NCBI GenBank assembly: GCA_964187785.1
Contig: OZ076409.1
Coordinates: 79,858,001 to 79,922,000 of the forward strand
Source: Amphiscolops sp. MND2022
Taxonomy: Eukaryota
Length of the DNA stretch: 64,000 nucleotides
Direction of reading: 5' to 3'
Shown here: piece by piece, positions 23,791-45,062 of the stretch
Layout of the letters: each line of letters starts with the position of its first letter
Numbering within the stretch: the first letter of the stretch is position 1
The notes under the pieces: model-generated
What the model was told of the DNA's origin: nothing
Seen by the model: the letters and a program-made list of their open reading frames with translations, nothing else
The model's database searches: none
Position numbers and translations under genes: made by a program

Positions 23791-24298
23791 TGCACCGCCT
23801 CACAGTGCGGGCCGAGAAAACCTACTCCGCCGTGGAACGATCTGGAAATCACCCCGTGGACGCTATCCTTGAGAAGCTATCATTACCTGGAGTAGAGAAA
23901 GCTCCTTGCCCCCGGTTTAAGGAGTGGACTAGTGATGAGAAGGGCCTGGAGTTTACCTTGCGCACCGTGATGTCCCCCGTGCCCAACAACATTGCGTTTG
24001 GACCATTCAATTTTGAAAGGGAACCCGTGCAAATGGCCCGGTGCATCACTGCTGACCTGTTGTGTGACAAGTACGGAGTGCAAGTGGAACCGGGTGGAGT
24101 ATACAGTCCTGCTCCTCATTGGTGGTTGCTGGTTACTGCTCCATGGGTGGAGACAATCGTGGAACCGCTGCACCTGCTGTCCTGTTTAGAGAGTCTTAGG
24201 ACCCTGACCACTACGGACTTGATACTTTGCTTCCATATCATAGACTGGTATCGGGGCAAGGTGAAATTTGCATGGTGGTTGGAACTGATCATCACCTG

Positions 24299-25225
24299 TG
24301 TAACGGCTGCTTGCCCTTATCCTGCGCTGAGGCTTGACAAGCTTTACGCCGCCCTGATCCGTTGCTTAGTGCTGTGGACCGTCACTAAACAATTCCTGGT
24401 TTTCTTGTTTAAAGGACTGTATCTTTTGGCTGGTGGGTCCGATGTGACCCGTGGAATCTCCTGCGATTCCGCTTTGCACTGAATTGGATCCGATGTGATC
24501 CTGCACACACACACTTCCCTCACTGTATCTTCACGCGCTCCGGCTCTCCAACTATGAGAGTAGCTACTTAGTCGCTCTGACTCTAGCGAAAAGTTGTGAA
24601 GATTAAGAAGTTGATTAATTAGTCTCGCGGTCCTAAGACCCAACTTGACTATAGCTATACAGTGGAGAAAATCTCTATCTAATAATGGTATAAATGTGGT
24701 TTACAATTCTACAGTAAATATAGAACAAATATCAGTTGAAATATGTGGTATAAATAAAATGACATTTAAGTGAATTATTAAAGTTATTGGCTATGTAAAC
24801 AAAGCACATGGTGGTTTTGGCATGTTGACTAGGCGGGCTTTAAAGCATGTTTACACAATGTAAATATCATGAATTCCAACAGAGTTACATTCTAATGTGG
24901 GTCATATGGTTAAATAACAAAGTTTACATTTTTGGTTCAATGACCTTGAACACTACACATGTGAGGGGTAAAGGGGGTTATAATGGGTGGATAACCTTGA
25001 AACTTGGCCAGTGTGTTTGGGTTATGTACCTGCATGCGTGTGCCAAGTTTCGTGGCTCTAGGGTTAACAGTCTTGGAGAAAACCCATTTGGGGGGGGGGT
25101 TTAAAGAATTGTGATGATTGGATTTTCTTCAAATTTTCATCTAAGTTTTTAAGAGTTTAAGTCTTGTTTCTCAACCAGCATGTTCCAAATCGACTTTCTT
25201 TGCCTGCTGATGACTGGCGCCAACA
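24299..25225 (-). repeat. BEL1 3' LTR (927 bp)
   Basis: Direct repeat of 31915-32840 with about 5 differences seen; TG...CA ends. Confidence 0.95.
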
Positions 25226-28200
25226 TTGCCGGCCCTGTTTTTCTCCTGAAAAACACTTTCGTAGAACATGGGTGCCAGTTTCACTACTGGTCTTTTGAGT
25301 TTTCCATCTTCCGTTTTCACCAGTGCTGATCTCACTCGCCCATCGCTTCCATGAAAGACTTCTAACACTTTACCCATCTTGTAGTGTGCTCTTTTTACAT
25401 TTTCATCCACAATCCAAACCAAATCATTGACTTCCAGCTGTCTAACGTCTTCTTTATTCCATTTAGATCTCTCATTCCATTGTGGTAAATATTCTCTATT
25501 CCATCTGCTCCAGATCATATCTGCGTATGCTTGTGATACTCTGAATACTCTTCTCAGATCTGTATATCGCTGAGCGTCAGGAATAAATGGGGTTGCTGGA
25601 CTTGCACGTCCTAGCCGGAAGTGATTTGGAGTCAAAGCTTCCAAATCTTCAGGATCATCACTGGCACTAGTCAGAGGTCTCGAATTCAATATCTGCTCGA
25701 CTAGACACATAGTTGTGGATAGTACATCATCTGTCAGTGTTCTGTTTCCGACTATTGCCATCATAGCTTTCTTGCAGCTTCTGACCATTCGCTCCCAAAC
25801 ACCTCCAAAATGCGGCGCACCTGGGGGGTTGAACTTCCATTTTATTTGCTTTAGAGCCAAAGACTGCTCAATATCTGATTGATTCCAAGCTTCTATCCAT
25901 TCTCGCATTTCTCTTGCTGCGCCCACGAAATTTGTTCCATTGTCACTTAGAATGACGTTGGGTTTTCCTCTTCGTGCCATGAATCTCGTAATTGCAGCAA
26001 GACATGCGTCGGCTTCCAGGCTGGGCACGACTTCAATATGCACAGCTCTTGTTGTTAAACATGTGAATAGACAACACCATCGTTTCATTGATTTCCTCAT
26101 GAATCTCACTTCGAATGGTCCAAAATAGTCTACTCCAGTATTGGCAAAAGGGAAAACTCTTTCTTCCAATCTTTCTTTAGGTAGGTCTGCCATGAAAGGT
26201 TGAACTCCTCCAACTTGTTGCTTTCTGCACTTAACACACTTCAATTTCACATTTCTGAGCGCGTTTCGGAGTCCAATTATCCAGTAATTTTGCTGCAAAA
26301 TACTGCGAACATACTCTGTTCCTTCATGATAGTTACTTTCGTGAGCATCTTCAATCAATTTCCTCACTATTGGATGCTTCGCAGATAGCAAAATTGGATG
26401 TTTCATTTCATAACTGGCATCAGCGTGACGCAGTCGTCCTCTTAATCGCATGAGGTTCTCATCGTCCATAAATGGTGATAGTTTGTTCAAGTGATCAAAT
26501 GCCGCCAGGGGTTTACCTGCGGCCAATGCTTGATAACTTTGACAGAAGCTTTCCATCTGACTTTTCCTCAGTAATAGTCGGATCACTTGCTGCATTTCTT
26601 CTGTTATTACCACCTTTCCTTTGATTTTTGATTTGAACCGAAGGCAATAGGCGAAGATCCGGGTCATTCTTCTAAATGAACCGAACTTCTCCCAATCAAT
26701 GTCTTTTTCTTCTGACACGACTTCAAAGACTTGCTCTATGTCTTCTGTTTTCTGCTGAAACAACTGTGGTGAGGTTTGTGGCCAAGCATCTTCCTTTTCT
26801 TGAAGCCATGCCGGCCCTGTGAACCACTCGCTCTTTTCTAATTCGTGGACGGATTTTCCTCTTGTTCCAATGTCGGCAGGGTTTAAGGTTCTTTCGACAT
26901 GTCTCCACTGATCAATAGTTGAACTGTCAAGGATTTCAGCGACTCTATTCGCTACAAACACCGGTTGTTTCTTGTCAGCTCCATGCAACCATTGCAAAAC
27001 GGTTGTCGAATCCGTCCAAAAGAAAGTTCGTTCAACTTGAATGTCGTGTTCGTCTACGATCAGTTGTTTTAATCGGGTTCCATACATAGCTGCTTGTAGC
27101 TCTAGTCGGGGAATTGATTGTTGCTTCATTGGCGCTACTCGGCATTTCCCTAACACATAGGCAAGCTCTCCAGTTTGTTGATCACGAAAGTAGGCAACTA
27201 TGCACATGGCTTCCAGGGATGCATCGGCGAAAATATGCAAGTCCACTACTTCAGCATTTTTCGATAGATATTTTCTTTTGATAGCCATTTCATTCATGTG
27301 ACTCAACTCCGATGCCCAATCCTTGAAAGCAATCTCGTCTTCTGGAGAAACTTGTTCGTCCCACGATTGCCCATGCTTCTTCCAAATTCCTTTGAGCAAC
27401 AATCTCATTCTCAATGTGAAGGGGGAAAACAATCCCAACGGGTCAAACACAGAGGATACGTGAGATAGAACAATTCTCTGAGTGATCTTGACAGGCACCT
27501 CTTTTCCCGTACCGCGGCAAATCTCAAGACTGTCTGACTCCACATTCCACTGGAGTCCCAAGATAGAGGGTGCCAAGGGTTCAGCTTCGAATGTTTTACT
27601 TAGCGCGTCTGATCTATCTTCAGAAGGAATTTCTTCCATTACTTTCTCTGAGTTGCAGATCCATTTCGTTAGTTGAAAGCCACGATCCGCTAAGGATTTT
27701 CGCAAGCACTTATACGCTTCCACAGTTTCTTCCCTCGAAGCTACTGACTTCACAAAATCGTCCATATAGAAGTTTCTGTTGATCAACTTTGCAACCATCC
27801 CATTGTCATCTCTGCTGTCTCGTCCGACTTGTTGCAAAGCGTAGTTGGCACATGTTGGCGAACTCTTAGCTCCAAAAATGTGTCTTCCATACTCATACAC
27901 AGAGATAGGGTCAGTGTGGTTTTCTCTCCACAAAAATCTCAGTACTCTGCAATCAGTAGGGGGTACTTTCACTTGGAGAAACATTGCTTCGACGTCTGCT
28001 GTCAGGGCGATTTCCTTTTCCCTGAATCTGAAGATAATTCCTATCAGCGATTGTAGGAGGTCTGGACCGGCCATCAAGTTATCATTCAGCGAAACACCTC
28101 CGAACTTTGAGGCAGCGTTGCACACTCGTCTCACTTTGTCCGGCTTGTTCGGGTTCAGCACAGGGAGATGCGGAACATACCACTGAAGGTCTGAATTAGT

Positions 28201-29544
28201 GTTTTCAAGCTCTGCTTCGTCCAAAACTCGCACAAAGCCCTTTTGTACGTCCACATCAATTGTCTCTTTGTAGCGTTGTTTCAAGTTCGCATCCTTTTCC
28301 AGTCGGCGCTCGAGAGACTTCAATTGACTTACTGCCGAACTGTAATTGTTTGGCAAATGCGGCTTTGCATTTTTCCAAAGTAGCCCGACCTCGTATCTCT
28401 TTCCGTCGAACTTCGTGGTTGCTTTGAGCATTTCGAGGGCTCGCTCGTCTTCCTTGGACCTTCCGGATACGCTGCAATTGGAAGCATACGATTCCATGCT
28501 CCACCAAGACTTCACTTGATCCGCTAACGGGTCCACTTCTGCTGCAACTAGACTTTCAGTTGCGAGCTTTGCTGTCTCTTGCTGAGGCAATGGTCCACTG
28601 AGCATCCATCCCAGCTTCGTTCGCACTGCCCAGGGCTTGGCGTTTCCACACTTTCTATAGTCGATTGCTCTATGCAAGTGGTAGCAATCTTGGCCCAAGA
28701 TGACTTTCACATCTTTCAGGTTGATGGTAGAATCTTTCAGCACTGACAGGTGTGGATATTCTTCCTTCAATTTCTTGAGGTTGTACGTTCGATTTCCTGC
28801 ATTTACGTCGGGATGACTATAGGCCATGATATCTTCTTTGACTTTTCCGTCCTGATCTCCAATCCTGACTCGAAGTCGTTTGCTACTAATATCTGACGTT
28901 CCATGAATCCCTGCAACGTTCAAATCCACTGGCTGTCCCGTCAGATTTAGCGCTTTCATCAGGCTCTCGTCCACAAAGGACAGGCTTGCTCCAGAGTCGC
29001 ACAAAGCGAACGTTTTCACAGTTTTGCTCCCACTCCCTATCAATACTGGAATGACTGGAAGCACTCCACTGCTTCTCATTGAGGACAGGTTGGAGACCTC
29101 ATCGACATTTTCAACATTTTTCTTTTGTTCCACGTTCTTGTATGTTCTGTGTAGCAATCTGTGATGATGTTTTCCGCAACCATTCACATCGCAGAGTCTA
29201 CCAGAGCAATTTCTCATCTGATGTGCGTCTGACAAGCATTTGAAGCACAATTTCAGCTCTTTCGCCTTTTGTCCCCTTTCTTCGACGTTCATCTTCTTGA
29301 ACTTCTCACATTTCCATATTGGATGTTTGCCATCTTTCAGCGCACACTCTCGCTGGTATTTTGAGTTGTCACTGGTTGTGTTTGTTGTTGATGTTGCAAA
29401 CGTGGAGCCTTTGGCCTTTTCCTTGTAGTTCGACTTCGCGCGATCAGCATTCGGGTTTGAAGACAAAAGCAATTCGTCTTGAACATCTGCTATATCATTG
29501 AGCCATTCACTGAACACAGCGAGTCCAGGTTGACACAGGTTCAT
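25171..29544 (-). CDS. BEL/Pao polyprotein (Cys/His gag knuckles, protease, RT, RNase H, integrase), 1457-aa open frame ending inside the 3' LTR
   Basis: CFKCLSDAH..C, ALCDSGAS, RRVCNAAS, TADVEAMFLQV, FGAKSSP, FYMDD, IFADAS, IPRLEL, WTDST, NPADIGTRG, GVDYFGP, SDNGTNF, GGVWERMV, KRPVVKLAP. Confidence 0.95.
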   Translation of the reverse strand: MNLCQPGLAVFSEWLNDIADVQDELLLSSNPNADRAKSNYKEKAKGSTFATSTTNTTSDNSKYQRECALKDGKHPIWKCEKFKKMNVEERGQKAKELKLCFKCLSDAHQMRNCSGRLCDVNGCGKHHHRLLHRTYKNVEQKKNVENVDEVSNLSSMRSSGVLPVIPVLIGSGSKTVKTFALCDSGASLSFVDESLMKALNLTGQPVDLNVAGIHGTSDISSKRLRVRIGDQDGKVKEDIMAYSHPDVNAGNRTYNLKKLKEEYPHLSVLKDSTINLKDVKVILGQDCYHLHRAIDYRKCGNAKPWAVRTKLGWMLSGPLPQQETAKLATESLVAAEVDPLADQVKSWWSMESYASNCSVSGRSKEDERALEMLKATTKFDGKRYEVGLLWKNAKPHLPNNYSSAVSQLKSLERRLEKDANLKQRYKETIDVDVQKGFVRVLDEAELENTNSDLQWYVPHLPVLNPNKPDKVRRVCNAASKFGGVSLNDNLMAGPDLLQSLIGIIFRFREKEIALTADVEAMFLQVKVPPTDCRVLRFLWRENHTDPISVYEYGRHIFGAKSSPTCANYALQQVGRDSRDDNGMVAKLINRNFYMDDFVKSVASREETVEAYKCLRKSLADRGFQLTKWICNSEKVMEEIPSEDRSDALSKTFEAEPLAPSILGLQWNVESDSLEICRGTGKEVPVKITQRIVLSHVSSVFDPLGLFSPFTLRMRLLLKGIWKKHGQSWDEQVSPEDEIAFKDWASELSHMNEMAIKRKYLSKNAEVVDLHIFADASLEAMCIVAYFRDQQTGELAYVLGKCRVAPMKQQSIPRLELQAAMYGTRLKQLIVDEHDIQVERTFFWTDSTTVLQWLHGADKKQPVFVANRVAEILDSSTIDQWRHVERTLNPADIGTRGKSVHELEKSEWFTGPAWLQEKEDAWPQTSPQLFQQKTEDIEQVFEVVSEEKDIDWEKFGSFRRMTRIFAYCLRFKSKIKGKVVITEEMQQVIRLLLRKSQMESFCQSYQALAAGKPLAAFDHLNKLSPFMDDENLMRLRGRLRHADASYEMKHPILLSAKHPIVRKLIEDAHESNYHEGTEYVRSILQQNYWIIGLRNALRNVKLKCVKCRKQQVGGVQPFMADLPKERLEERVFPFANTGVDYFGPFEVRFMRKSMKRWCCLFTCLTTRAVHIEVVPSLEADACLAAITRFMARRGKPNVILSDNGTNFVGAAREMREWIEAWNQSDIEQSLALKQIKWKFNPPGAPHFGGVWERMVRSCKKAMMAIVGNRTLTDDVLSTTMCLVEQILNSRPLTSASDDPEDLEALTPNHFRLGRASPATPFIPDAQRYTDLRRVFRVSQAYADMIWSRWNREYLPQWNERSKWNKEDVRQLEVNDLVWIVDENVKRAHYKMGKVLEVFHGSDGRVRSALVKTEDGKLKRPVVKLAPMFYESVFQEKNRAGNVGASHQQAKKVDLEHAG

Positions 29545-31533
29545 AAGTGAGCCACTTCGTTTTCATGTCCAGTGTTAACTTCCTTGTGGCACTGCCCAGA
29601 ACTCCTTCTGAGTTTAGGTCTCCCACGTAGTTGAATTGTGTCAAAACATTCACGCAACTCGACACTATTCTCGCAAACTTGATCAATGCGGCTCCATCAT
29701 AAGGTTTCATCGGTGGAAAGGAGTAAATTCTCTTTAGTTGAGCATTCACAACCATTTGAGGTTTTCCAAAGTTTCGAACTAGAACGTTCCACGCCACATT
29801 GTACATCTCCGCGGTGTACCCAAGGCCAGCAATCGCCTCTTTGGCTTTGCCCGTGACCATTGTTTTCAGGTGATTCATCTTTACACTGTCGTCCATGTTT
29901 GCTGCGTGGACGGTTGCTTGAAACAGTTGTGACCACTCTGGCCACTCCAATGGGTCACCTGAAAACTCTGCCAGCTTCAATTTTGGCAAGCTGGATCTGA
30001 TGAAATAGTCATCTCTCGCATTTGACACTATGTTATGCCCTTGACGAGGCAGATACGGCTTCTGCGTGTTCTCAAGCTGTGGCACTTGAAATGCACCACT
30101 CGGGATGCCTCCTGACGTAGGCGGTAACCCATTCTGGTCTGCCATAAGGGTCATAGACGGCTTCGTCGAGGCGAACTTCACTTCTGGTTGTGCTGTTACT
30201 CTTTGACTGCCATCACGTATGACAGTCTTTGTTCCGTCCTTTCCAATATCTCGCACAGCGGCTTCGGTGGATATAGTCGGTTTCACTGGAGGATTCAAGT
30301 CCCTCACTAGCGCGGAGCATTGTCCTTCATGCATCGATTGTACTGTTATTACTGGTGCTGAGACGGACGTTTGCTGGTATACAGATGGCACGTTAATCTG
30401 CGAGGCCACGTTTTCAGCTTCTTCTGTCTTGTCCATCCATCCTGAGACTTTCGTCAGATTGTCATCTGGAGTCCCGACTGGTGAGATACTTCGGAAGCTA
30501 GACCCATCACTACTCGACACTTGCGCCATTTGTAGTTCCTTTTCAGCAATTTTGGCTTTGCGGGCCATCTCCTCTTGCAAGCTAACCATCTCATCTTGCA
30601 AGCTAGCTATCTTAACTTCGTTTGCTTCACGTCTCAGTTTCTCTAGGCGGGTTTGAAGTTCTTCTTGCTCTTTCAAAGCTTTTATCTCTAGATCAAGAAC
30701 TCGTCTTGCACTTGATGTTTTTGAAATCACAGAGGTTTTGTTGCTTTTGGTTCTTTTACTTCGCGAATGTATGCTCAATTCTTCTATTGGCAATGATCTA
30801 GTACCTTTTTCCCGCTCTTGGGCGTCATCCGCGTTTTGACCATTGTCTTCCTTTTGCTCGTCGTCTGGTTGTGGTTCTTTTTGTGGCGAGGTACAATTTT
30901 TTCTGGATTTGTCTGCTGTCGAGTTTACACGAGCGTCTGCCAGTCTTTGTTCAGCATCTTCAAGACTTCGCAAAATGGCTCCCTCGTCTCCTGACTTCAG
31001 CAGAGCTTCAATTTTCGTTTTAATGTCAGACCTTTTCTGCAGCAATTCTTGACACGCTGCAGCATAATCTTCTTCGTTGGCGTCATTGCCATTTGCGATT
31101 GAATCCTCCCGCAACTTTTCGTTGCTAACCATTAGTTTATCAATAGCACGTTTCTTTTCGTCAAGATCCAAGTAGTTTAGTATCTGATTTTCGTCTTGCA
31201 ATGCTGACATCAGTATTTTTACCCTTCCAATGGTAGAGCTTTGCTGCTGCAACTCAGCCAATCGGCTCTGCATTTCTTTGTTCACTGTTGAGAAGTTTGA
31301 TTTTCGATTGCCTTAATGAGCCGATCCCTCCTGTTTATGGCATCTGTTCGTCTTAGCAGTAAATCTGCTATCTGCTTGTCGTCAACATTGCTAGCTAGGT
31401 TCTCATCAATTTCTTTGACAGTCTTACCATGTTCAACAGCTGCAGTCCAATAACTCAACGTTTGGGCTTTGTCAGCAGAGTTCTTCAGAAAGTTTTCGAT
31501 TTTGTTGATATCGAACCGTTTTGGTTCTGCCAT
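29507..31533 (-). pseudogene. BEL gag N-terminal region (coiled coil + DUF1759-like), frameshifted at ~31285 and ~29545
   Basis: LPKLKLAEFSGDPLEWPEWSQLF..KMNHLKTMVTGKAKEAIAG..AWNVLVRNFG; ORFs 31282-31533 and 29507-31285 overlap the next frame. Confidence 0.85.
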
Positions 31534-31568
31534 CTCTTCTCTTGTCGATTGAACTCAGTTCCTAAAAT

Positions 31569-31791
31569 CACAATAGCCCAAACTCCCAGAGACACAATAG
31601 CCCAATCTCCCAGAGACACAAAAGCCCAATCTCCCAGGGACACAATAGCCCAATCTCCCAGAGACACAATAGCCCAATCTCCCAGAGACACAATAGCCCA
31701 ATCTCCCAGAGACACAATAGCCCAATCTCCCAGAGACACAATAGCCCAATCTCCCAGAGACACAGTAGCCCAATCTCCCAGAGACACAGTA
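31569..31791. repeat. 24-bp tandem repeat (cacaatagcccaatctcccagaga x~9) in BEL1 leader
   Basis: Directly visible; gives the TIAQSPRD / SLGDWAIV repeat ORFs. Confidence 0.95.
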
Positions 31792-31894
31792 GTCAGAGAC
31801 TCCAAGAATCAGACACTTGTTCTTTCTGGGCAATTTTCTCTGTTGTACACCAACGAGTCGTCTTCTTCTAGTCCGGGTCGTCCACCAACGAGTT

Positions 31895-31912
31895 GTCCGG
31901 GTCGGCGGACCA
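31895..31912 (-). promoter_or_regulatory. BEL1 primer-binding site (tRNA-Tyr-like)
   Basis: Minus strand tggtccgccgacccggac, 2 nt from the 5' LTR; identical to the BEL2 PBS. Confidence 0.75.
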
Positions 31913-31914
31913 AA

Positions 31915-32840
31915 TGTAACGGCTGCTTGCCCTTATCCTGCGCTGAGGCTTGACAAGCTTTACGCCGCCCTGATCCGTTGCTTAGTGCTGTGGACCGTCA
32001 CTAAACAATTCCTGGTTTTCTTGTTTAAAGGACTGTATCTTTTGGCTGGTGGGTCCGATGTGACCCGTGGAATCTCCTGCGATTCCGCTTTGCACTGAAC
32101 TGGATCCGATGTGATCCTGCACACACACACTTCCCTCACTGTATCTTCACGCGCTCCGGCTCTCCAACTATGAGAGTAGCTACTTAGTCGCTCTGACTCT
32201 AGCGAAAAGTTGTGAAGATTGAGAAGTTGATTAATTAGTCTCGCGGTCCTAAGACCCAACTTGACTATAGCTATACAGTGGAGAAAATCTCTATCTAATA
32301 ATGGTATAAATGTGGTTTACAATTCTACAGTAAATATAGAACAAATATCAGTTGAAATATGTGGTATAAATAAAATGACATTTAAGTGAATTATTAAAGT
32401 TATTGGCTATGTAAACAAAGCACATGGTGGTTTTGGCATGTTGACTAGGCGGGCTTTAAAGCATGTTTACACAATGTAAATATCATGAATTTCAACAGAG
32501 TTACATTCTAATGTGGGTCATATGGTTAAATAACAAAGTTTACATTTTTGGTTCAATGACCTTGAACACTACACATGTGAGGGGTAAAGGGGGTTATAAT
32601 GGGTGGATGACCTTGAAACTTGGCCAGTGTGTTTGGGTTATGTACCTGCATGCGTGTGCCAAGTTTCGTGGCTCTAGGGTTAACAGTCTTGGAGAAAACC
32701 CATTTGGGGGGGGGTTTAAAGAATTGTGATGATTGGATTTTCTTCAAATTTTCATCTAAGTTTTTAAGAGTTTAAGTCTTGTTTCTCAACCAGCATGTTC
32801 CAAATCGACTTTCTTTGCCTGCTGATGACTGGCGCCAACA
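31915..32840 (-). repeat. BEL1 5' LTR (926 bp)
   Basis: Repeat of 24299-25225. Confidence 0.95.
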
Positions 32841-33661
32841 ACCTGCTTCACCACCTATCCCAGAATTCGACTGCTAGATGAGTGGACTCACACATTCGAG
32901 GTCCTCTGTTCCCAAAAGCCGCCCTGGGAACTCTGAATACATGGGTCAAAGCCGGCAGTGACAATCGAGCGATGCCCCGCTCGGTATGGCAAGACCTGGC
33001 TGCGATTCAAGGACGCGCGCCTCGCGTGTGCCTCCCCTCCGACAATGGACCCGGACGAGAAATTGTTTACCCGGGAGCCCTATATCCAAATTCAGCCGAA
33101 CATGTCTCGTACGACGAAACTGACTTTTTGCAAGCAGAAGGCGATATCGTGTTAGCATGCCCCGCTGACCTGAAAACTAACTCCGCCGCCTTGCAATACG
33201 TGCTGCGAGAATGTGGCATAGAAAAAGTATTCTCCTTACGGCCTAAGGTGGGCGAGATGCTCACCATCCCCCCTGATGTTAATCCAAACCCCAACCAAAG
33301 TGTTCACCTGCTGATAGTACGAGCAAACCAGCGTGCGCCGCTGCTGACCGATGACTATTTGCACTGCATGACGCACCTAGTACAGCGCTTAATGGACAAG
33401 AGATCCGCACGGGTCCATTTGCCCATTCTGGACCACGAGAGACCTACCTTCTCGTTGGTCAATCTGTACCATGCCCTAGCGAACATGTTCGAGGGTACTG
33501 GTATTCATGTGGTTTTACACAGCCGCGTGTATGTGTCAATATTGAGTATAGGGCTGGAATAGCCTTGTCACTTAAATCCAACCCCTTTCCCCCGTTACCA
33601 TTGCCTGATTGTAATTGCCTGAGTACCCACCAACAGTCATCCTTTTTAGACCTATGAATTA

Positions 33662-36600
33662 ATGGCCTACTGCCCAAGCAACTCCGTGCCTGCAACAGGG
33701 CCTAGTAGTGCAATGCCTCAAGAATCTGCGCGAGCGCAGAGGGTCAATCAGGCCCAATTTGTAGAGGACAGGTTGCGAAATGGCCTTCCGCCAGTGGCCA
33801 TCGCTGGTGTGGCAGCACTACTTACTCAGCTTGACACCATGCAAACGCTGTCAGGCGTGTCACTCTCAATTGTAACTGAGGTAGCGGGCTACCGCCGCGC
33901 CTTGACATGTACCAACGGCGCCTGGGATGGTTACGACCTTACCCATCAATTCCTAGACGAACGATCCACCGTGGTATACGGCCCCAGCCAAGGTACCAGA
34001 TTTGAGCAAGAGGCCTCCTTGCGAATGATGCCTGCCAATGTTCCCTCGTTGCCGCCAATTGTAGCACCAAATTCAGTGTCGATGACGCCAACTTATTCTG
34101 GCTCGCCTGCTTTTGGAGCACCATACGGAACTCAGCAGATTCCTCCAACTAATCAACCAGTCTCTGATCGGGAGCCCTCGGGGTCCCGGTTACCACCTGT
34201 GCCAAACCTGAATCTCATTGGGCGAAGCACTGGCGAACAGGCAGTGATAGTGGCCCTGCAAGCCGTGGCCAATTATCCCAACTCATCCCACTTCGTTCGG
34301 GCAGTAGAACAAAGGATTCCGGGGTTGGCTAACTATTTGCAAGCCGCCGCTCAGCCCTTGGGCTGCGAAACTCCCACCACTCTAGCTGAAACAGCATCCA
34401 TGGACACCGAGACCATAGCTGGACCCAGCAGTAGTACCACGGCTGCCCCAAGTGGCAGTACCGCGACTGGCCCACGTGAAGAAGCTGGACGGAAGCGAGT
34501 AACGGGAGAGAGTGCCGCCTCTGCCCCCACTGGCTCGGTGACGGAAAGTCCAACCAGTCGTCCTCTTCCGGACAAGCGTGCAGATGTGCCTCAGCAACCC
34601 CAGATGAAGAGTGTAGTAATAGTCATGCCCCCATATCGTGTTGGCCACCTTGGCCGAGGTGCGCCCCAACTGACCATGCGAGAGGCCATTGAGCAATATG
34701 GCGACGCGGAGGCCGGCCCTGAAGCGAGCTCCGTGCCCTCGGGCACGGGATCCACCGAGATGTCTTTGGATGTGCCTGAAGCAATTGAGGAAGCCAGCCC
34801 GCCAGCCTTCCTACCACCATCCGACGATGTGTCTGGCTCTGTAGCAACCAGCGACAGTAAGCGCATTTGGATGGCCGCAGAACGTCTGTATCCGAACATG
34901 TGTGCAATCAGAAGGAGAGCGCCCCCGACAGAAGCTGACCAGAACGAAGTGAACCGAATCACTATCGCTGCACAAATCACACGAGTACTGCGTCCCCGTG
35001 ATGCAGATATGTCCGAGCAAGCTTGGGAGCAGCGTGCTCGAGAGCAACTGCCCATGACGCCTAACGACTATATGGCGCCCCTGCAACACAACATTACCGA
35101 GCAATTTCCCGCGCTGTACACACTGCGAGATGGTGAAACATGGGAAGCAAAAACCCGCTATGCCCGTAACATTGTTTCCATGAAACCCCTACTGAAGGCA
35201 GCTTTGCAGCGCGCGCGCTACTGTGTGGCAGTGGACTCCACCTGCAGAAGCGACCTACCCATCGACAACCTGATGCCCGACGTACTGGTGTTGACGATGC
35301 CCTTGTCCCGTTTCGCCGAGGTTGCTGAAATGATCAGGGTAATGTACGACCCGAACCTGAGAGGGTCACTGAAAGAGCCGCCCCCACAGAGAGTGATCTT
35401 TGCCAATCTGCTGGACCACATGGCGTGCGAAGGATTGTTGCGTGACCTGGATACCATCATGGGTGACACCCGTCGACCTGGAAACGTCGCTACCTTGGTG
35501 AACATCGTTGCGGATGCGATGGAGCGTGCCGCAGGGATCCTTCGGGGTCGCCTGGGAGCGCGAGCGCTCTTCGTATCCCCGCCAGGATTCATGTACTGGC
35601 AGCAGAGTTTGCAACAGTTCGTTTATATCCTGTTGGAAGTGTGCAAGGCACGCAGGATTGACTTTGCCATCTGCGCACCAAACCTTAGGGTGGATCATGG
35701 AGACCTCCGCCCTGACGCACTGTCATATCCAGCCTTCTTCGCTGCCATATCCTGTAGAGCGTTCGGGGAATGTGCAGTTGACCATAGACGACGCCGTGCT
35801 CTTCGACCATGGAATGCATGGGAAGAATGGCCTTCGACCTGGATGGCAACCGTGTCATGCGAGAGTCCAACGTAAGTGAACGAGAAGCTGTCCGTCGCCA
35901 TAACTGGCTGGTGCGTAAAGACAAAGAAGTCCCCGTACGTGCAGAACTAGCTGAGTTAGTGAAACAAATCGAAGCATGGCCTGCTGCGCGCACGGTCGAG
36001 CGAACATTCCCTCATATTCACTTTGCTACAGGAATCGAGCCCGTCAAGCTGCCCGTGGGCATCAGGCACATCGTGGCCAACGAAGCGACCAACCTGAAGA
36101 ACGATGTAGATGCAGCTAGTATTACCTACGCCCACTGGTACCAGGCCAGATTCGTGAACAGAACCTTGGCGGAAGTGGCTCGAGAGCACGACTGCCCCCT
36201 GGAAGCCTTTTTTACCAGTCTCGGTCTGGGCTGGAACATCGATGTAATCGCCGCCGAGTTCTCGCTCACCAATGTGCAGGCCGACAAACTACTGGAAATC
36301 ATCGGCGAGGCTACCGTAGGAGAAGTGTTAGCGCTCGCGCTAACGATGGGCCCGACAAAGTTTGTGGCTGGCCCTCTGGCCATCCTGATTGACATCGTGA
36401 CATCCGGTGACCTAATCACTTTCTACAGCTATCTGGTCCTTGCACAGGGACAACTCCGCAGCCTGACCCGCTGGGGTCACCTCATGAATTCCAAGGACCA
36501 GCAAAACTATTCCGCCCAATTGGAGCGCATGCGTGCGTCGATCCAACATTGGTTATACTCCACCCTGGTATTCGCCTCTGGTTTATTCGTAGGCGTGGAC

Positions 36601-37218
36601 CAGTCGCAACCTCTACATAATGCGGAGCGCCAGATATCCTGGGAGTTGGCCGGATTTCCCATGCCACAGCAACTCGCTGAACTGACGTTAGCCGAAGTAG
36701 AGGTCTTTGTGGCCTCCATGGCTCCGGTTTTGGCCCGAATTTTCGGCGCAATTGGTGTCTGCAGGTACCCAACTAAGCCCCTCGCGAGAGCAGTGCAGGT
36801 GCATATGGTATCCTTCTGCACCTATCTTCAAGGACGCCCCTCGCTGACTTACCCACGCGTTGTACAGGCCGTACTGAGTGGAGAAATGCCGCATGGGTAC
36901 ACTACTCTGAAGTCTGAGAAACAGTTGGAGGAGAATTTGATGGGGCTACTGCGTGCTCGCACGCGAAAATTATGTCCTTTGCCGCGGGAGTACGGCCCAA
37001 TCAATTGGTACTCCGCCCCCCTCAGCCTGAATGGAGTCCCCTTCCGATTTCCATGGACCCAAGAGTTCATTCGTAAGGTGATCCGTGCCAGCACTAGTGC
37101 TGGTCCACCCATAGACCCCCTCTACAGTTTCCGGTGCATCACTTTCCCAAACCATTACTGGAAAGAACCACTGGGATGGCCCAGACCGAAGCACATTGGT
37201 CGCGCCCTGAGACCTTAA
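33662..37218 (+). pseudogene. Gypsy extra large ORF (~1180 aa reconstructed) with an SGNH-hydrolase-like core; frameshifts at ~35750 and ~35815
   Basis: ATG-started 737-aa and 469-aa frames bridged by part of ORF 35508-35879; motifs CVAVDS, LTMPLS, VIFANLLDH, ALFVSPP, GDLRPDALSY. Confidence 0.55.
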
Positions 37219-37940
37219 ACCGACAGATCCAACATATGGAACTGGCGCAAATCCCGGGTTGGATTGAAGAAGCCGCCCAAATTCGACAGCGAAATCTTCT
37301 GTGCCGCATTACTCCGTTTCCCCGAAGATCTATATGGAGGCCCCAGGGAAAGATGACGATGTCAGGAGATATGTCAATCGTGTTACACGATGAGATAAAT
37401 TCTGTCCTAGGTTCTGAAGCCCGTGCAGAATGGGAGGGACGTTGCTTGGAACTGGAGATTGCCAGCTTCCCGAAATGGAAGCGAGCTTGCGAGCTCTGGA
37501 ATCAACCTGGCTGGGTTTCCAAGCGAGTATCCTTGGCTGTGGAGAGTCGAGCCGAGACCGCCAGACAACAGGCGTTCGCGCCTACCATGCTCGCACCAAC
37601 AATGGCCATGTCGCGGAATCAACCCAGCGTACGACCCATAACCCTTGATCTACCCACTCATGTCTTGAACCCAGAGCCTATCAGTCCACCGTCGTCACAG
37701 GCCAGTCCTCAGTCATCGCAGCCCCAAACCGGAGAACACGCCGCTGAACTGACCCCCAACACTATCCTGGTGCAGCCGATCGCCGATTTAGCGCTCCCAG
37801 AAGACCTTTCAGACTCGGAAACAGTAGTTTCTGTAGTTCCTGCTCAACGTAGAGCGTCAGTCGCGTTGGAAGATGCTAGCAATCCAGGAACTTCCGATGA
37901 TGCCACCAAGAATCGAGCTCGACGCAGCTCAGCCCAATGA
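37134..37940 (+). CDS. Gypsy terminal extra ORF (268 aa) or frameshifted continuation of the large ORF; unknown function
   Basis: Open frame overlapping the end of 35809-37218; Trp-rich core and P/S-rich tail. Confidence 0.45.
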   Translation: MHHFPKPLLERTTGMAQTEAHWSRPETLNRQIQHMELAQIPGWIEEAAQIRQRNLLCRITPFPRRSIWRPQGKMTMSGDMSIVLHDEINSVLGSEARAEWEGRCLELEIASFPKWKRACELWNQPGWVSKRVSLAVESRAETARQQAFAPTMLAPTMAMSRNQPSVRPITLDLPTHVLNPEPISPPSSQASPQSSQPQTGEHAAELTPNTILVQPIADLALPEDLSDSETVVSVVPAQRRASVALEDASNPGTSDDATKNRARRSSAQ

Positions 37941-38713: not shown

Positions 38714-41057
38714 TGTAACGGCAAGCTCTGGTACAGCAATATCCACCGATTTTGCAACTCGACATGTTCAGATATTTTGCCAAAAATTCGTTCAAATCTG
38801 ACGTGGCACTCAAACATGCTCAAGATGAAGTACCTGCCAGAAAAGCACCCCAGAAAATCAGAAATCGCCGCCCGCGAAGAGCGAACGCAAGAAACGACCA
38901 AAAAGACGTACTTTTCGTCTAAAAAACACGGTATTGTGCCCATCCCCAAGAGATCGACACTACTATAGTACCGGAAACCCGTGTTCCAGATGTTCGCCTG
39001 AGTATCCCTGCAGTGTCCTGTGTGGTGACGAGCGCTAGCGCTGGGAGCCGAAGTCATTTTCTACCAAAATGACTCAAACTGTTAATTTTGTTGTATTTCT
39101 CTTTGCTGTAGATTGATATGCTCGAGAGCTGCTCTTGAACATCTATGTTTACATATTTGGATATGTCGATTTTATCAGATTCTCCAATACTATGGCTCAA
39201 CCTCCTCTTGTTTTCAGCCCCCTTTTTAAAGGCTAGTTGAGCAGTGGTCTTGAGTTATGCAAGATGCCTGTTGTTGGCGCAAGTCAATTGCGAGATCAGA
39301 ATCTCAAATTTGAACGTGACTGATGAAACTTACAACTCAAAAGACTTAGAAAATTTATCATGATTTTAGTTGGAAAATTTACAAGTTTCAGCAGAAAATT
39401 GCCTGAGGGAAAAAACACCACCCCCCCCCCCCCGTCCCGACGAACCGCTCGTTCAACAACCTCGAAACTTGGCACATATATAGTGGTGGTGCTTTCCTAA
39501 CTTTTCACTCTTAACAAGCTACCCCGTATCTCCCCTGGGTTCAGAGCAATTAACACCCAAAGTGACCTAGGTCGTACCCCATGAATTACCCAATTTTGAT
39601 GTATTAATATTTATGTGATTTTCTCATTTGACCTTGAAGGAAATGTAACTCTGTTGAAATTTATGATATTTACATTGTGTAAACATACTTTCTAACCCAC
39701 CTAACCACCATGCCAAAACCACCACATTCTTTGTTTACATAGCCAATAACTTTAATAATTCACTTGAATGTCATTTAATTATACAACATATTTCAACTGA
39801 TATTTGCTTATATTTACTGTAGAATTGTAAACCACATGTGTACCATTATTAGAGAGAGATTTTAACGACTGAATAGCTGTATTCAAGTTGGGTCTTAGGA
39901 CCATTTCAATTCTCAGTTCATTTCTTCACCTCTTTTCGACTTTTCGCCAAAGACTTAGGGCGACTAAGTTAGTTACTCTCATCTTGTGGAGAGTTGGACG
40001 TGTTAAGAGACAAGGAAGAAGTGCAATTCGGGATCATTGGATCCTACTAAGTCAAGATACAGTCCTTTTAATCTAAGAAGCAAGCAGTGTTCGGTAACGA
40101 TCCGCAGTGCCGAGCACCGAATTCAGGGCGGCGTAAAGTTTGGTCAATTGAAGGGATCAAGCAGCCGTTACATTTGGTCCGCCGACCCGGACATCATCTT
40201 TTGGGCGGACATCATCACATTGGGCGGACATCAAAAGTTGGAGTGGACATCAATCAGGGTGGACACTACAAGAGGAACGTCGTCTTCATCGTGGGTGAAT
40301 TGCATTCGTGGTGGAAGACACGTGAGCAGTTAGAGTCATCAAACGGGTGACACAACATCTCTCTGTTCAAGTTACACGAAGTTTGAAAGAGCTTCCGTGC
40401 TGGTTTCTGTGGCAAACCAGAGAGCTGGGAGGACAAGCCTAATTGTAGGGACCTTCCAAAACTAGAAGTTGCAACAGGTGATCCTGTTCGCACAGCAATC
40501 GAAAAGTATTGCAAGAGTCGTTGCATTCGAACGGAATCGCGACAAGTAGCTGAGACAACTATTCACGACGAATGAGAACTGTGGACACTGGGTCTAGAGT
40601 TGGTGATTGGAACTCTGGGAAAGTGTACACTGGGGCTTCGGTATTGGACTATTGGGCGATTTGGAACTTGATTGGTTGTGTACTCTGGGAGTTGGGCTTT
40701 AGCAGGAGACAATTGTGCTTCAATTCCAGTTTGGGACGATTGGTATCCTTGGGAAACGTATTCCTAATTGAAAGCAAAGGTTTTAACTAAGACGTCGCTG
40801 CAAGCATATCCACCAAGTAAAGCAAAAGGATCGAGTCATTGGGCGAGGTCCACCGAATCAATCAAATTCGTCAACGAAGGCAAGCATAATCGACATTTTG
40901 GGTTGATTCTTCAAGAATTGGCGATTGATTACTGCGTTGAGCAGTTGAGATTTCAGATCTTACAAATTGCTGAGTTTGGGAAAAGTGACAAAGTCGACAA
41001 GAAACTATTGTGTAGTCAGAAAGTCCTCGGTTAAACAATAAACTGCAATCTGAACAA

Positions 41058-42719
41058 ATGAACGCCAGAAAGAAAGAAATGCTCGAGGTGCAACATCCTC
41101 GAATGACAAATGTATTTGATCAAAGAAACACAAATCAGAGCCAAGAACTGATGGACCTCAGATCAAGAGATTTGGAAAATGATTCCGACTGGTACGTGTG
41201 GCGCTTTTATGTGGACACTGTGGCCACCCAAGTCGGAAGACTACGGACTCTGATTAAAGACTTGGATGACAAGCTTGACGAGCAGGGCGCTAGTCTTTGC
41301 AAAGGAAAATTGAAAGATTGGGTATTCGAATATCGCGAGAATAAACAAGCATTGTTGCATAACGTAGATCTCATGTTGGACCTCACGAACGAAGCAACGC
41401 AAAGACAGCTCAATCGAAGTGTGACTGAATGGGAAGAAATCTTTGTAAAATTAGAAGACAGCTGGGGATATTGGTTCCCTGATGTAAAGACAATGTTGAA
41501 AAATCCAAAAAATAAAACAGACAAAACGAAACTTCGCCAAGTGGCAAGTGGAACCTGCACAGATGCGACTATGAGATGCACTTACACAAGGAAGCTCAAG
41601 CAAATTAGTTTCAATCCAACAAAACGCAATTGCTCAGTGGAAGTAACTAGTGAAAATAAATCACTGGCACAGTCAAACAGGGTAACGGATGAAGAACGAC
41701 GGGTTGTTGGAGCAGCCAACCCCTGTGATGTGATTAAATCAATCAGTGATGTGAAAGTGTTAATCGAACAAAGCAACAACGAGTCAGTCAAAGCAACCTC
41801 AAAGAGCAACAGAACAACAGCTAGTTCTAAGTCATTTAATGCAAAACGAATACTTCTTCTAGAATTGGAAGCAATGAAGAAACGAGATGAAATTGATGAG
41901 CAGCTAGCTGCAGCAAGACGCAAAGCCGAGATCCGAAAGAAACAATGGGAGATGGACATGAGGATACTCGCAGAAAAACTCGAAATTGCTAGGCTCGAAG
42001 AAGAAAGCGCGAGGACTAAACAAGTTGCCAACCAAGAAATTGAGTTAGCGCGAAATGAAATGCAGCTAAAACTGACACAATCACAGAAAGTGACAAAGCA
42101 GTTGCAACCATGCAAAGTTCCGCAGGAATGTTATCGGACTTTCAAGGCAATCTCGAACTCAACAAAGCCTCTTACAGGAGCGGAACTGCGTGAGCAAAGC
42201 GCTCACTCTCGGAACAACATGAATGAAGTGACGAACAAACGGTCACACCAGAGAAGCAACAAGGAACCCTGTTTTGGGCGAACTGATGCAAAGAGTATTG
42301 TTGGATCACTTTGGCGCTCGAACCATAAAAGCGTTGAAAGTAGTTCAATGATGAGAACTGTGAAGCAAACTCAACCAAGGCAAACTTCGAGCAAAGAAAG
42401 TTCAAGTGGTCGTAATGAATCGCTGAAAAGAAAAGACGACGTTTTGGGCAAGCAAGAAGAAATGGTTTTGCTCAAAACTCTTAACTGGACAACAAAAGGA
42501 AAGTGTACAGTGAAAAAATGGAAACCTGAGCAGATGAAGTGTTCAGACAAGTGTCCAAACCATGGAAAGTTGCAAGACAAAACTACCAAACGTGAAGCAC
42601 ATGAAGACTCAAATATGAGAAATGTTGAAAGCGATGCAAACAAAGGAACCTCGAAAAATCTAATCGCAGAATGGATGTGGAACTGGCCAGAAACGTTCGT
42701 TGTAGACATTGGCTGGTAA
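41058..42719 (+). CDS. Gag-like coiled-coil protein of BEL2 (553 aa)
   Basis: SKSNRTTASSKSFNAKRILLLELEAMKKRDE resembles BEL1 gag TKSNKTSVISKTSSARRVLDLEIKALKEQEE. Confidence 0.55.
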   Translation: MNARKKEMLEVQHPRMTNVFDQRNTNQSQELMDLRSRDLENDSDWYVWRFYVDTVATQVGRLRTLIKDLDDKLDEQGASLCKGKLKDWVFEYRENKQALLHNVDLMLDLTNEATQRQLNRSVTEWEEIFVKLEDSWGYWFPDVKTMLKNPKNKTDKTKLRQVASGTCTDATMRCTYTRKLKQISFNPTKRNCSVEVTSENKSLAQSNRVTDEERRVVGAANPCDVIKSISDVKVLIEQSNNESVKATSKSNRTTASSKSFNAKRILLLELEAMKKRDEIDEQLAAARRKAEIRKKQWEMDMRILAEKLEIARLEEESARTKQVANQEIELARNEMQLKLTQSQKVTKQLQPCKVPQECYRTFKAISNSTKPLTGAELREQSAHSRNNMNEVTNKRSHQRSNKEPCFGRTDAKSIVGSLWRSNHKSVESSSMMRTVKQTQPRQTSSKESSSGRNESLKRKDDVLGKQEEMVLLKTLNWTTKGKCTVKKWKPEQMKCSDKCPNHGKLQDKTTKREAHEDSNMRNVESDANKGTSKNLIAEWMWNWPETFVVDIGW

Positions 42720-45062
42720 GACTTCCGATCAGAAACCCTCCTCGTGGATACAGAGCAAATTTTGGAAGAAGAGATTCACTTGGTCATGAGTGAGCACTTG
42801 GTAGTGCAAACAGAGGAGACTTTGGATTACAGAATGACTGAAACAAGGAAAGAGCATCGAAGCTCAGCCTTCGCATCGAACAATGAAACTTCGGAAGAAA
42901 TGAGTGTGCAATTGGAACTGCTGCAAGAGATGGCAGAATTTTCCACCGTACTGCAGGACGTGCGACAGGGGAAACTATTCCAAGTGACAGTGTTTTATGA
43001 CATTACTCTACTTCTTGAAGAAAAAAAACAAATGTTATGAATTTGTCAAAAGTTATGACTTTGTGAATGAACAACGTTATACACTGCCAGGAGACTTGAA
43101 TGAAATAGTCATGTATCAAAAGCTATGCCACGTTGCATTGAAACATGATAAACCCGCGAAAGGCAATGCTAAAGTTGAAACACAAATCGTGAATGCAACC
43201 TTTGGAAAGAAGACGGATTTCGACTTCAATGAATGTCTTTTAGAAGAAACTATCCCGAGTCATAGTAATATATGGAACCCTTGGACTGGTAATGGAAACT
43301 CTGGAATGGACGCAGTGTCACAGGCTAATGGCATTAATAAAACTCAATTGAGCAAAGGCCACCGCAAGCGACCGAAGAAAAGATCTTGGAAGATTGAACA
43401 TAACTGGAACCTGATTCATGGAATGGAGGAAGGCGCTCAGTTGAAAGTGAATGGAACACCACAAGATGACACACTTTGGCTACGTGAGTTCAGAGATAAC
43501 TCATCAGTGACAAGAATAGAAATGTGTTCTTTGAAAGTACCAGCAACAAGTTGGAGCAACGGGTCTTGCAATGGGCCGGCTGCACTTTTCAAGACATTGT
43601 GGACTTGGCATGGGTCTTTTGGCAAATTGGAAGTTTCTGATGATCTATCGCAGCCGGATAGAAACCTAGATGAAAAGAAAGTAGAATTTTGTGGTGAAAG
43701 AAGCTCGGTGACGCTCTAGGAACAGAAGCGAAAGCGAAACTCCACAGCATTGCAGTTACTGGGAGAAAACTCGGATGTAGCTACGGAAAACGATGTGTCA
43801 GAAAGCAGAGTGCTAAATGTAGTGCAGCGACTGAGCTTAAAACACAACTCCCCCCCCTATTGGATGCAAAGAGAACATTGAACACGAAGGAAAAAACTGC
43901 AGTCGCAGTAATGTTGGAAATTTTCTTCATCTATTGGTGATGATGATGGATGATTCAATAATCTCTCACGAACGCCAAATTGATTGCTTGAATATGAAAC
44001 GATTAGAGAACCAATTCTGTTTGATATACGTCCCCCGCAGTTATTCAACTTTGATGAGGAAATATGCAGCAGAGCAAATCTTGGCAAACTGGCTGAAGAC
44101 ATTTTTGACCTACCTGGAAATCTACTCTTTGGATGTTGAAGTAATTATGGAAGTCGAGCTAAATGAGCTGAAGCATTTTGGCAGTGTACTTTTCGAGGGC
44201 TCACAAGAAAAGCAATTGATTGAACTCAGTGAATGTCGGACGTTGGTGATGAAGTTTGCGATAATTGGGAAAATTGAGACTTCAAATGAGAAAATAGTTT
44301 TATGGAAATATTTTGTTGTGTTTTTTGAACGTGTGGAAAACAACCTTACGGTCGGCGAAGTGGGTTATGGGCTAAAAAAACATTGCAGCAGAGAGAGAAC
44401 ACATCAAGCAACTGACAAAGATGACTATGAATCTGGAGATCTCAGAAAGACAACGACAATTGATGACGAACTGAAACGACCAGTAGTGAGACTGGCACCC
44501 CTGTTCTATGAAAGTGTTTTTCGGGAGAAAAACAGGGCCGGCAATGTTGGCGCCAGTCAATTGCGAGATCAGAATCTCAAATTTGAACGTGACTGATGAA
44601 ACTTACAACTCAAAAGACTTAGAAAATTTATCATGATTTTAGTTGGAAAATTTACAAGTTTCAGCAGAAATATGCCTGAGGGAAAAAACACCACCCCCCA
44701 CTGTCCCGACGAACCGCTCGTTCAACAACCTCGAAACTTGGCACATATATAGTGGTGGTGCTTTCCTAACTTTTCACTCCTAACAAGCTACCCCGTATCT
44801 CCCCTGGGTTCAGAGCATTTACCACCCAAAGTGACCTAGGTCGTACCCCATGAATTACCCAATTTTGATGTATTAATAATTATGTGATTTTCTCATTTGA
44901 CCTTGAAGGAAATGTAACTCTGTTGAAATTTATGATATTTACATTGTGTAAACATACTTTCTAACCCACCTAACCACCATGCCAAAACCACCACATTCTT
45001 TGTTTACATAGCCAATAACTTTAATAATTCACTTAAATGTCATTTAATTATACAACATATTT

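What the first reader, a model, noticed from the sequence alone, without database searches (positions are those of the whole stretch)
32846..33562. Gypsy retrotransposon carries a TARG1/OARD1-like macrodomain downstream of integrase
Seen: inside the LTR-bounded element the ORF reads VSYDETDFL-DIVLACPADL-LRECGIEKVFSLRPKVGEMLTI-SVHLLIVR-DYLHCMTHL-VHLPILD-LYHALANMFEGTGIHVVLH. Established: human TARG1/OARD1, from memory, follows [71 protein letters not shown]; this macrodomain class binds or removes ADP-ribose, including from DNA. Inference: the order and spacing match along the whole domain. The catalytic Lys (LITK) appears as Arg (LIVR) and the GCGLD loop is lost, which suggests an ADP-ribose reader or decoy rather than a hydrolase, possibly countering PARP-based defence.
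Basis: partly seen in the sequence, partly recalled or inferred. Interest (0 to 1): 0.85.

Follow-up and report, generated by a model that had tools for sequence, protein, structure and literature searches.

The report
Dead macrodomain pair on retrotransposon integrase
A very abundant jumping-gene family ends its main protein with two copies of an ADP-ribose-removing enzyme fold whose binding pocket has been rewritten, so the pair likely serves as a docking module for the integrase, and the same family leaves an unusually short 3-base insertion footprint.

Summary

It is not a separate ORF. It is the C-terminus of a ~3190-aa Gypsy Gag-Pol and the second of two tandem macro-like repeats; a BEL insertion split the first in this dead copy. 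Both repeats are under strong purifying selection (dN/dS 0.04-0.05).

The 'ADP-ribose reader/decoy' reading is doubtful. Besides K84R and loss of D125, the phosphate loop carries Glu at the G123 position, the laboratory mutation that abolishes TARG1 ADP-ribose binding. With an upstream AT-hook-like motif and cysteine cluster, the pair most likely tethers integrase to a host factor (inferred, ~0.45).

Two further results. The clade makes 3-bp target duplications (28 of 30 copies) with TG..CA ends, and is not Troyka. Other LTR lineages in this genome carry intact TARG1-like domains. Macrodomains in retroelements are known, and this scan noted another type in a Gypsy element on other DNA. My ten literature searches did not find the tandem pseudo-enzyme or a TG..CA Gypsy with 3-bp duplications.

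The parts
12372..12374 (.). 3-bp target-site duplication (left copy) of the outer Gypsy element
   Evidence: identical to 45993-45995
12375..13118 (+). 5' LTR of the outer Gypsy element, TG..CA ends
   Evidence: 98.7-99.5% identical to the split 3' LTR; ends
13134..13143 (+). primer-binding-site-like motif, about 15 nt downstream of the LTR
   Evidence: sequence; similar offset in distant sub-families; tRNA partner not identified
15507..33562 (+). Gag-Pol coding region (CCHC knuckle 17887-17928, protease motif 18700-18714, RT YIDD 20213-20224, RNase H, integrase); broken here by frameshifts and the BEL insertion; one ~3190-aa frame in unbroken copies
   Evidence: Pfam; motif places and tblastn pieces
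21784..22743 (+). integrase zinc-binding and core domains and GPY/F-like (GPH) motif
   Evidence: PF17921, PF00665; motif 22729-22743
23473..23496 (+). AT-hook-like RGRP motif in the tail after the integrase
   Evidence: weak Pfam AT_hook, E 0.31, below cut-off; GRP-type motif in 7 of 7 polyproteins compared
23683..23715 (+). cysteine cluster, possible zinc site
   Evidence: CxxCG in 7 of 7 polyproteins, the full four-Cys pattern in 6 of 7; metal binding inferred
23985..24298 (+). D1, first (shortened) macro-like repeat, N-terminal part
24299..32840 (-). nested BEL/Pao LTR retrotransposon (LTRs 24299-25225 and 31915-32840) with 5-bp duplication at 24294-24298 and 32841-32845; splits D1
32846..32891 (+). 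D1, C-terminal tail (frame differs from D2; frameshift near 32900)
33095..33532 (+). D2, the TARG1-like pseudo-macrodomain of the finding. Codons at TARG1 positions: D20=Asp 33122, S35=Pro 33161, K84=Arg 33320, G121=Asp 33431, G123=Glu 33437, D125=Pro 33443
33560..33562 (+). stop codon of Gag-Pol
33650..37940 (+). ORF2 of unknown function (~1430-1500 aa in unbroken copies; three frames here)
   Evidence: no Pfam hit above E 0.18 and no PDB hit
38714..45992 (+). 3' LTR of the Gypsy (38714-39271 and 45801-45992), split by a second, decayed BEL-like element (39272-45800, 5-bp duplication)
45993..45995 (.). 3-bp target-site duplication (right copy)

Best explanation
The stretch encodes the second of two tandem TARG1-type macrodomains that end the Gag-Pol polyprotein of a high-copy Gypsy clade; its catalytic and phosphate-binding residues are replaced, so it is predicted to neither cleave nor bind ADP-ribose and likely works as a protein-docking module that tethers the integrase to a host factor or chromatin. 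SHOWN: the fold, the fusion to Gag-Pol, homology of the two repeats, strong purifying selection, the conserved rewritten pocket, and the order integrase - GPH - linker - AT-hook-like motif - Cys cluster - D1 - D2. INFERRED: (a) an ancestral element carried an ordinary TARG1-like eraser, as other LTR lineages in this genome still do; (b) the phosphate loop was rewritten before duplication, since the G121-position Asp and the following Arg are shared by both repeats; (c) the tail stays on the integrase after protease processing, as the chromodomain of chromoviruses does; (d) the AT-hook grips AT-rich DNA while the mildly acidic pseudo-macrodomains bind a protein partner, steering or stabilising the integration complex.
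For: Fold. Pocket across the family (A4, 103 rows; n = rows with a residue in that column): K84->R 58/66 (Lys in 2); G121->D 50/55; G123->E 40/54 (Gly in 3); D125->P 40/52 (Asp in 0); S35->P 66/72; G43->A 59/70. The TARG1 pattern TKx(30,35)Px[IL]GxGxD (PMC6397177, passages) is matched by 0 of 103 rows, many of them fragments, versus 5 of 7 Pfam-Macro domains from other LTR lineages of this genome. G123E abolishes ADP-ribose binding and activity in TARG1 (PMC5928194, passages). Selection between sub-families at dS~1: D1 0.039, D2 0.051, integrase 0.022, linker 0.141 (pairwise Nei-Gojobori). Tandem homology. AT-hook-like and CxxCG motifs in 7 of 7 polyproteins. Charge: D2 median net -2, pI 6.1 (41 rows), versus +6 to +12 in 4 of 7 canonical domains, which favours a protein over a nucleic-acid partner. 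Position matches the chromovirus chromodomain (PMC12440569; 10.1101/2021.11.30.470311, passages).
Against: No partner was identified and no binding was measured. Flanks of 23 young copies show no sharp target: 0 tRNA genes in 46 flanks, GC 0.32-0.42, common dispersed repeats, and only a weak symmetric A(-6)/T(+6) preference (19/23 and 13/23; one row had an unsure end); no random-locus or chromatin control was available. The adenosine half of the pocket is kept (D20 59/71, P118 41/56; roles from PMC6397177), and the new loop is itself conserved, so a small-ligand site may survive. The G123E effect was measured in TARG1, not in this remodelled loop. Whether the tail stays attached to integrase is unknown. 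pTM is only 0.51, so the D1-D2 arrangement is uncertain.
Confidence: 0.45

Rival explanations
1. One reading: the domain still binds ADP-ribosylated targets through a remodelled pocket and either shields the element from PARP-based defence or finds PARylated chromatin, as the catalytically inactive ALC1 macrodomain does.
For: Adenine-binding D20 and P118 and ribose-side T83 (47/66) are kept. Arg at position 84 keeps a positive charge. Six other LTR-element lineages here carry Pfam Macro domains, most with the intact TARG1 pattern, which suggests ADP-ribosylation matters to these elements. ALC1 is a dead reader of this class (PMC9967889, passages).
Against: Both glycines of the diphosphate loop are replaced by acidic residues: Asp in 15 of 15 stop-free genomic copies, Glu in 13 of 15. 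G123E blocks binding in TARG1. I44 of the adenine pocket is mostly Ala (39/70) and G41/G43 are lost. D1 also lacks part of the loop-1 region.
Confidence: 0.17
2. Internal structural or anti-silencing role: the D1-D2 tail is released or exposed inside the particle and binds the element's own ORF2 protein or Gag, or a host silencing factor, with no role in choosing the target.
For: A large conserved ORF2 follows the module in every long copy examined. No sharp insertion preference was seen. A long low-complexity linker separates the integrase core from D1.
Against: The AT-hook-like motif in the same tail points to DNA contact. No cleavage site was located. No evidence of ORF2 binding was obtained; no complex prediction was run.
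Confidence: 0.2
3. Nucleic-acid or adenine-nucleotide binder, like the tandem non-ADP-ribose macrodomains of the coronavirus SUD region: it grips the element's RNA, cDNA or target DNA, perhaps through the retained adenine pocket.
Against: TARG1 binds RNA through basic surface patches, whereas both repeats here are neutral to acidic (median net -2, pI about 6).
Confidence: 0.13
4. Still an enzyme, with new chemistry on an ADP-ribose-like or other substrate.
For: SCO6735, of the same class, is active with Gln at the K84 position (PMC9967889), so K84R alone is not decisive. The replaced residues are conserved.
Against: K84, D125, S35 and the phosphate loop are all changed together; 0 of 103 rows match the TARG1 pattern.
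Confidence: 0.05

Closest known systems
Human TARG1/OARD1/C6orf130 (PDB 4J5R, 4J5S, 2L8R); ALC1-like macrodomain class with DarG, Poa1p, SCO6735
   Different: 12% identity; K84, D125, S35 and the GxG loop replaced; preceded by a second shortened repeat; fused to a retrotransposon polyprotein
Intact TARG1-like domains in other LTR elements of this genome (L065/L066, L077, L076, L071, L083, L087)
   Same: Same macrodomain class in LTR elements; hhalign 97.3%, E 2e-11; two lineages also place it at the Pol C-terminus
   Different: Single domain, catalytic pattern intact in 5 of 7; RT only 24-39% identical; 5-bp target duplications in the three read
Chromoviruses (Gypsy with a chromodomain at the integrase C-terminus)
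   Same: Extra folded domain at the Pol C-terminus after the integrase; targeting role proposed by analogy
   Different: The domain is a tandem pseudo-macrodomain, not a chromodomain; targeting not shown here
Troyka LTR retrotransposons (PMC12440569; parts 1-4 of 5 read)
   Same: 3-bp target-site duplications; single Gag-Pol frame
   Different: TG..CA not CG..CG ends; canonical CX2CX4HX4C knuckle; GPH motif present; LTR ~720-745 bp and internal part ~17 kb, against 100-400 bp and 1.6-7.7 kb; the paper's main text has no 'macro'
Teleost epsilon-like endogenous retroviruses with macro-domain ORFs (Basta et al. 2009; seen only as a passage in review PMC4977317, primary paper not held)
   Same: Macrodomain carried by an LTR retroelement
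   Different: Described as additional ORFs in retroviruses; class and pocket state not checkable here

Membership tests
Macrodomain fold, TARG1/ALC1-like class | alpha/beta/alpha macro fold closest to TARG1/DarG/Poa1p | tested here: met
TARG1-type hydrolase | catalytic Lys84 | tested here: not met
   Arg in 58/66, Lys in 2/66
TARG1-type hydrolase | catalytic Asp125 | tested here: not met
   Asp in 0/52, Pro in 40/52
TARG1-type hydrolase / ADP-ribose reader | GxG diphosphate loop (G121, G123); pattern TKx(30,35)Px[IL]GxGxD | tested here: not met
   Asp 50/55, Glu 40/54; pattern in 0 of 103 rows
TARG1-type hydrolase / ADP-ribose reader | adenosine pocket (D20, L21, I44, P118) | tested here: inconclusive
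   D20 59/71 and P118 41/56 kept, position 21 hydrophobic, I44 mostly Ala
ADP-ribose reader | measured binding to ADP-ribose or PAR | not testable with these tools
   needs ITC or thermal shift
Macrodomain fold (repeat D1) | homology and fold of the upstream repeat | tested here: inconclusive
Gypsy/Metaviridae | LTRs with TG..CA; order Gag-PR-RT-RH-IN; CX2CX4HX4C; GPY/F motif | tested here: met
   the motif reads GPH
Gypsy/Metaviridae | 4-6 bp target-site duplication (usual for LTR elements, PMC12440569) | tested here: not met
   3 bp in 28 of 30 copies with both ends found; the other 2 match at two of three bases; none 4-6 bp
Gypsy/Metaviridae | RT phylogeny among named clades | not tested
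   no reference set on hand; the in-genome tree only shows the clade is separate from the other macro-bearing lineages
Troyka | 3-bp TSD | tested here: met
Troyka | CG..CG termini; CX2CX8-10HX4C knuckle; no GPF/Y motif; LTR 100-400 bp | tested here: not met
   TG..CA ends, canonical knuckle, GPH motif, LTR 712-744 bp against PMC12440569
Chromovirus-like targeting element | biased integration caused by the C-terminal domain | tested here: inconclusive
   no sharp target in 23 insertion sites; no chromatin data or random control

The most novel reading that the evidence does not exclude
An undescribed, highly successful Gypsy clade turned a captured ADP-ribose eraser into a duplicated pseudo-enzyme that acts as a new kind of integrase tether (a macrodomain counterpart of the chromodomain), and its integrase evolved a 3-bp staggered cut independently of Troyka. 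Sister lineages in the same genome keep the active eraser, so the whole path from enzyme to adaptor can be studied in one genome.
Probability: 0.3. Interest if true: 0.82.

Novelty: new variant of a known kind. Interest (0 to 1): 0.62.

Why it matters
First, it adds a new type of accessory module at the integrase C-terminus, where the few known modules (chromodomains) decide where an element lands. Second, one genome holds at least six LTR lineages with TARG1-like domains in four different polyprotein positions, plus this clade with a pocket-dead pair. That is repeated recruitment and makes the question 'do hosts use ADP-ribosylation against retrotransposons?' testable on small soluble domains. 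Third, a 3-bp duplication with ordinary TG..CA ends departs from the 4-6 bp rule, to which Troyka is the exception described in PMC12440569. It bears on how integrases set their cut spacing, and annotation tools that demand 4-6 bp would miss hundreds of intact copies (inference).

Tried and rejected
- Single-sequence Pfam and PDB searches: nothing.
- The shallow alignment A2 gave no PDB hit, no useful Pfam or PHROGs hit and a useless model (pLDDT 35); only deeper alignments worked.
- Atlas feature search: Macro cluster at 0.89 for D2, a lead only; nothing for D1.
- D1 profile against the PDB: no hit. The first D1-D2 hhalign was discarded because the two alignments overlapped; it was redone on trimmed columns.
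- My guess that ORF2 holds an SGNH esterase was not supported: hhalign 0.15%, score inside the null; no Pfam or PDB hit.
- Troyka membership rejected (see Membership tests).
- Insertion next to tRNA genes: none in 46 flanks.
- Two young copies were dropped from the TSD count because the 5' end was missing or damaged (L154/L155 and the C10 copy). LTR ends were not resolved for three control elements (macC1, macC12b, macC3).
- No RNA holder was listed; this is no evidence on expression.
- The macro tree separates D2 from canonical domains by a long branch and cannot name a donor. P0185, which keeps Gly at the G123 position, branches first among D2 sequences under midpoint rooting only.
- No complex prediction was run, as no partner is claimed.
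- Sharifi 2013 and Basta 2009 were not held.
- Literature searches: macrodomain+LTR retrotransposon+Gypsy 0 papers; macro domain+retrotransposon+integrase 2 (30); TARG1/OARD1 with TE terms, listing only; macro domain+LTR retrotransposons+ADP-ribose 0 (63); macrodomain+retrotransposon 42, 30 listed, none on topic by title; macro domain+endogenous retrovirus 9 (69); Appr-1/A1pp terms; TARG1 K84 D125 (73); 3-bp TSD terms 11, none on topic by title; Troyka 4 (92). Repbase Reports, subscription journals and supplements (including the Troyka supplements) were not seen and may already record these elements.

Full report
1. What is at the coordinates. Self-comparison of the window and Pfam show three nested elements. 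An outer Gypsy has LTRs at 12375-13118 and 38714-45992. A BEL/Pao element lies on the minus strand at 24299-32840 with a 5-bp duplication. A second BEL-like element at 39272-45800 splits the Gypsy 3' LTR. The finding starts at the first base after the BEL duplication. In unbroken copies elsewhere in the genome the same sequence is the C-terminal end of one Gag-Pol frame of 3182-3225 aa (4 of 6 copies fetched; the other 2 are frameshifted) and of 3028-3326 aa in three distant sub-families. So it is a fused domain, not an extra ORF, and the window copy is dead (eight tblastn pieces). The family is large: 150 scored of 3691 candidates, all 89-100% identical. 30 of 30 copies picked by integrase alone carry the upstream repeat (the fetched flank did not reach D2).

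4. The pocket. The register comes; the roles from PMC6397177 (passages) and PMC9967889 (passages). Among aligned members: K84 is Arg in 58/66, D125 is Asp in 0/52, S35 is Pro in 66/72, G121 is Asp in 50/55, G123 is Glu in 40/54 and G43 is Ala in 59/70, while D20 (59/71), T83 (47/66) and P118 (41/56) are kept. These rows are related and include decayed fragments, so the counts are not independent. In 15 stop-free genomic copies from sub-families down to 41% identity, the G121 position is Asp in 15 and the G123 position Glu in 13. G123E is the substitution used to abolish ADP-ribose binding and activity in TARG1, which still binds RNA (PMC5928194, passages). The published TARG1 pattern is met by 0 of 103 rows. 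Hydrolase activity is thus very unlikely and ADP-ribose reading unlikely. The kept adenosine half and the conservation of the new loop leave a different ligand open.

5. It is functional. Pairwise dN/dS between sub-families at dS about 1 is 0.039 for D1 and 0.051 for D2, against 0.022 for integrase and RNase H and 0.141 for the linker. A second independent pair gives 0.083 and 0.063. Very close pairs are noisier (D2 0.025-0.236), and deeper pairs are saturated. No site-level test was run.

6. Context of the tail. After the integrase GPH motif come a long linker, an AT-hook-like motif and a CxxCG cysteine cluster (7 of 7 polyproteins), then D1 and D2. Both repeats are neutral to acidic (median net charge -2). 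This is where chromoviruses carry their chromodomain (PMC12440569; 10.1101/2021.11.30.470311, passages). I infer a tethering or docking role (0.45). Against it, 23 young insertion sites show no sharp target (0 tRNA genes in 46 flanks; weak A/T symmetry), and no control set was available.

7. Relatives in the same genome. A Pfam Macro search gave 59 matches among 150 scored. Six representative elements were examined. They carry the domain after the integrase (two lineages), between RNase H and integrase or just after RNase H (two), before the RT (one) and after the protease in an RT-less element (one). 5 of 7 aligned domains meet the TARG1 pattern, and one hits human TARG1 at E 7e-24. Their profile matches D2 at 97.3%. 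Their RTs are 24-39% identical to this clade, which forms its own branch. The donor cannot be named.

8. An unexpected 3-bp footprint. Among copies with both ends found, the duplication is exactly 3 bp in 18 of 20 young copies, 2 of 2 further ones, 7 of 7 from distant sub-families (one read by eye) and the window: 28 of 30. The other two match at two of three bases. Two copies with a damaged 5' end were dropped. Same-genome controls give 5 bp: both BEL elements and three macro-bearing elements of other lineages (two read by eye). PMC12440569 (parts 1-4 of 5) states that most LTR elements give 4-6 bp and that Troyka gives 3 bp with CG..CG ends. This clade has TG..CA ends, a canonical knuckle, a GPH motif and far larger LTRs, so it is not Troyka. 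Whether module and footprint are linked is unknown; all sub-families tested have both.

9. Novelty. Macrodomains in LTR retroelements are on record: teleost ERVs (one passage of review PMC4977317; primary paper not held) and an unchecked note of this scan on another genome (e1-7470572). Ten searches (listed under Tried and rejected) found no paper on TARG1-type domains in Gypsy elements, on a tandem pocket-dead pair, or on a TG..CA Gypsy with 3-bp duplications. Repbase and subscription journals were not searchable, so absence from print is not shown. Also seen: PMC4695847, PMC4245714 and PMC5408684 (passages; nothing on macrodomains in retrotransposons among the terms searched) and PMC11673190 (part 1 of 3; not relevant).

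10. Verdict. New variant of a known kind; interest 0.62.

Noticed in passing
window 12372-12374 and 45993-45995; loci L142-L200: The whole clade makes 3-bp target duplications with TG..CA ends (28 of 30 copies); same-genome control elements give 5 bp.
   Followed up: yes
L122-L133 (G000 C13, C12, C1, C3, C8): At least six other LTR-element lineages carry TARG1-like macrodomains in four polyprotein positions; most keep the catalytic pattern. One also has a dUTPase-like stretch (L124), one a downstream viral fusion-glycoprotein-like ORF (PF24664, L127:5255-7357).
   Followed up: partly
L130:2925-5459 and many copies: An RT-less LTR element encoding one 834-846-aa protein with a protease and an intact TARG1-like domain, present in dozens of copies with open frames; possibly a non-autonomous element that keeps an ADP-ribose eraser.
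   Followed up: partly
window 33650-37940: ORF2 of 1430-1500 aa, conserved across sub-families, with no Pfam or PDB match; an SGNH-esterase guess failed.
   Followed up: partly
window 13119-13143: The primer-binding-site-like motif sits about 15 nt downstream of the 5' LTR rather than next to it, also in distant sub-families.
   Followed up: no
window 24299-32840 and 39272-45800: Two related BEL/Pao-type elements (LTRs about 83% alike, opposite orientation) both landed in the same Gypsy copy; each has LTRs 97-99.7% identical.
   Followed up: partly
window 46287-53466: Host genes just downstream of the 3' LTR: a Kri1-like frame starting about 300 bp away and a DEAD-box helicase with a pogo/Tigger-like DNA transposon (CENP-B_N, DDE_1; 51192-52472) between its exons.
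   Followed up: partly
window 1-6530: 38-bp tandem repeat array with a higher-order period of about 1.8-2.1 kb and a perfect 225-bp inversion at 6026-6531.
   Followed up: no
window 31536-31840: 24-bp tandem repeat inside the 5' untranslated part of the nested BEL element.
   Followed up: no
protein P0185 (unnamed ENA contig): A distant relative (about 30% identity) that keeps Gly at the G123 position, is basic, and shows no first repeat upstream: a possible intermediate between TARG1-like erasers and D2.
   Followed up: partly
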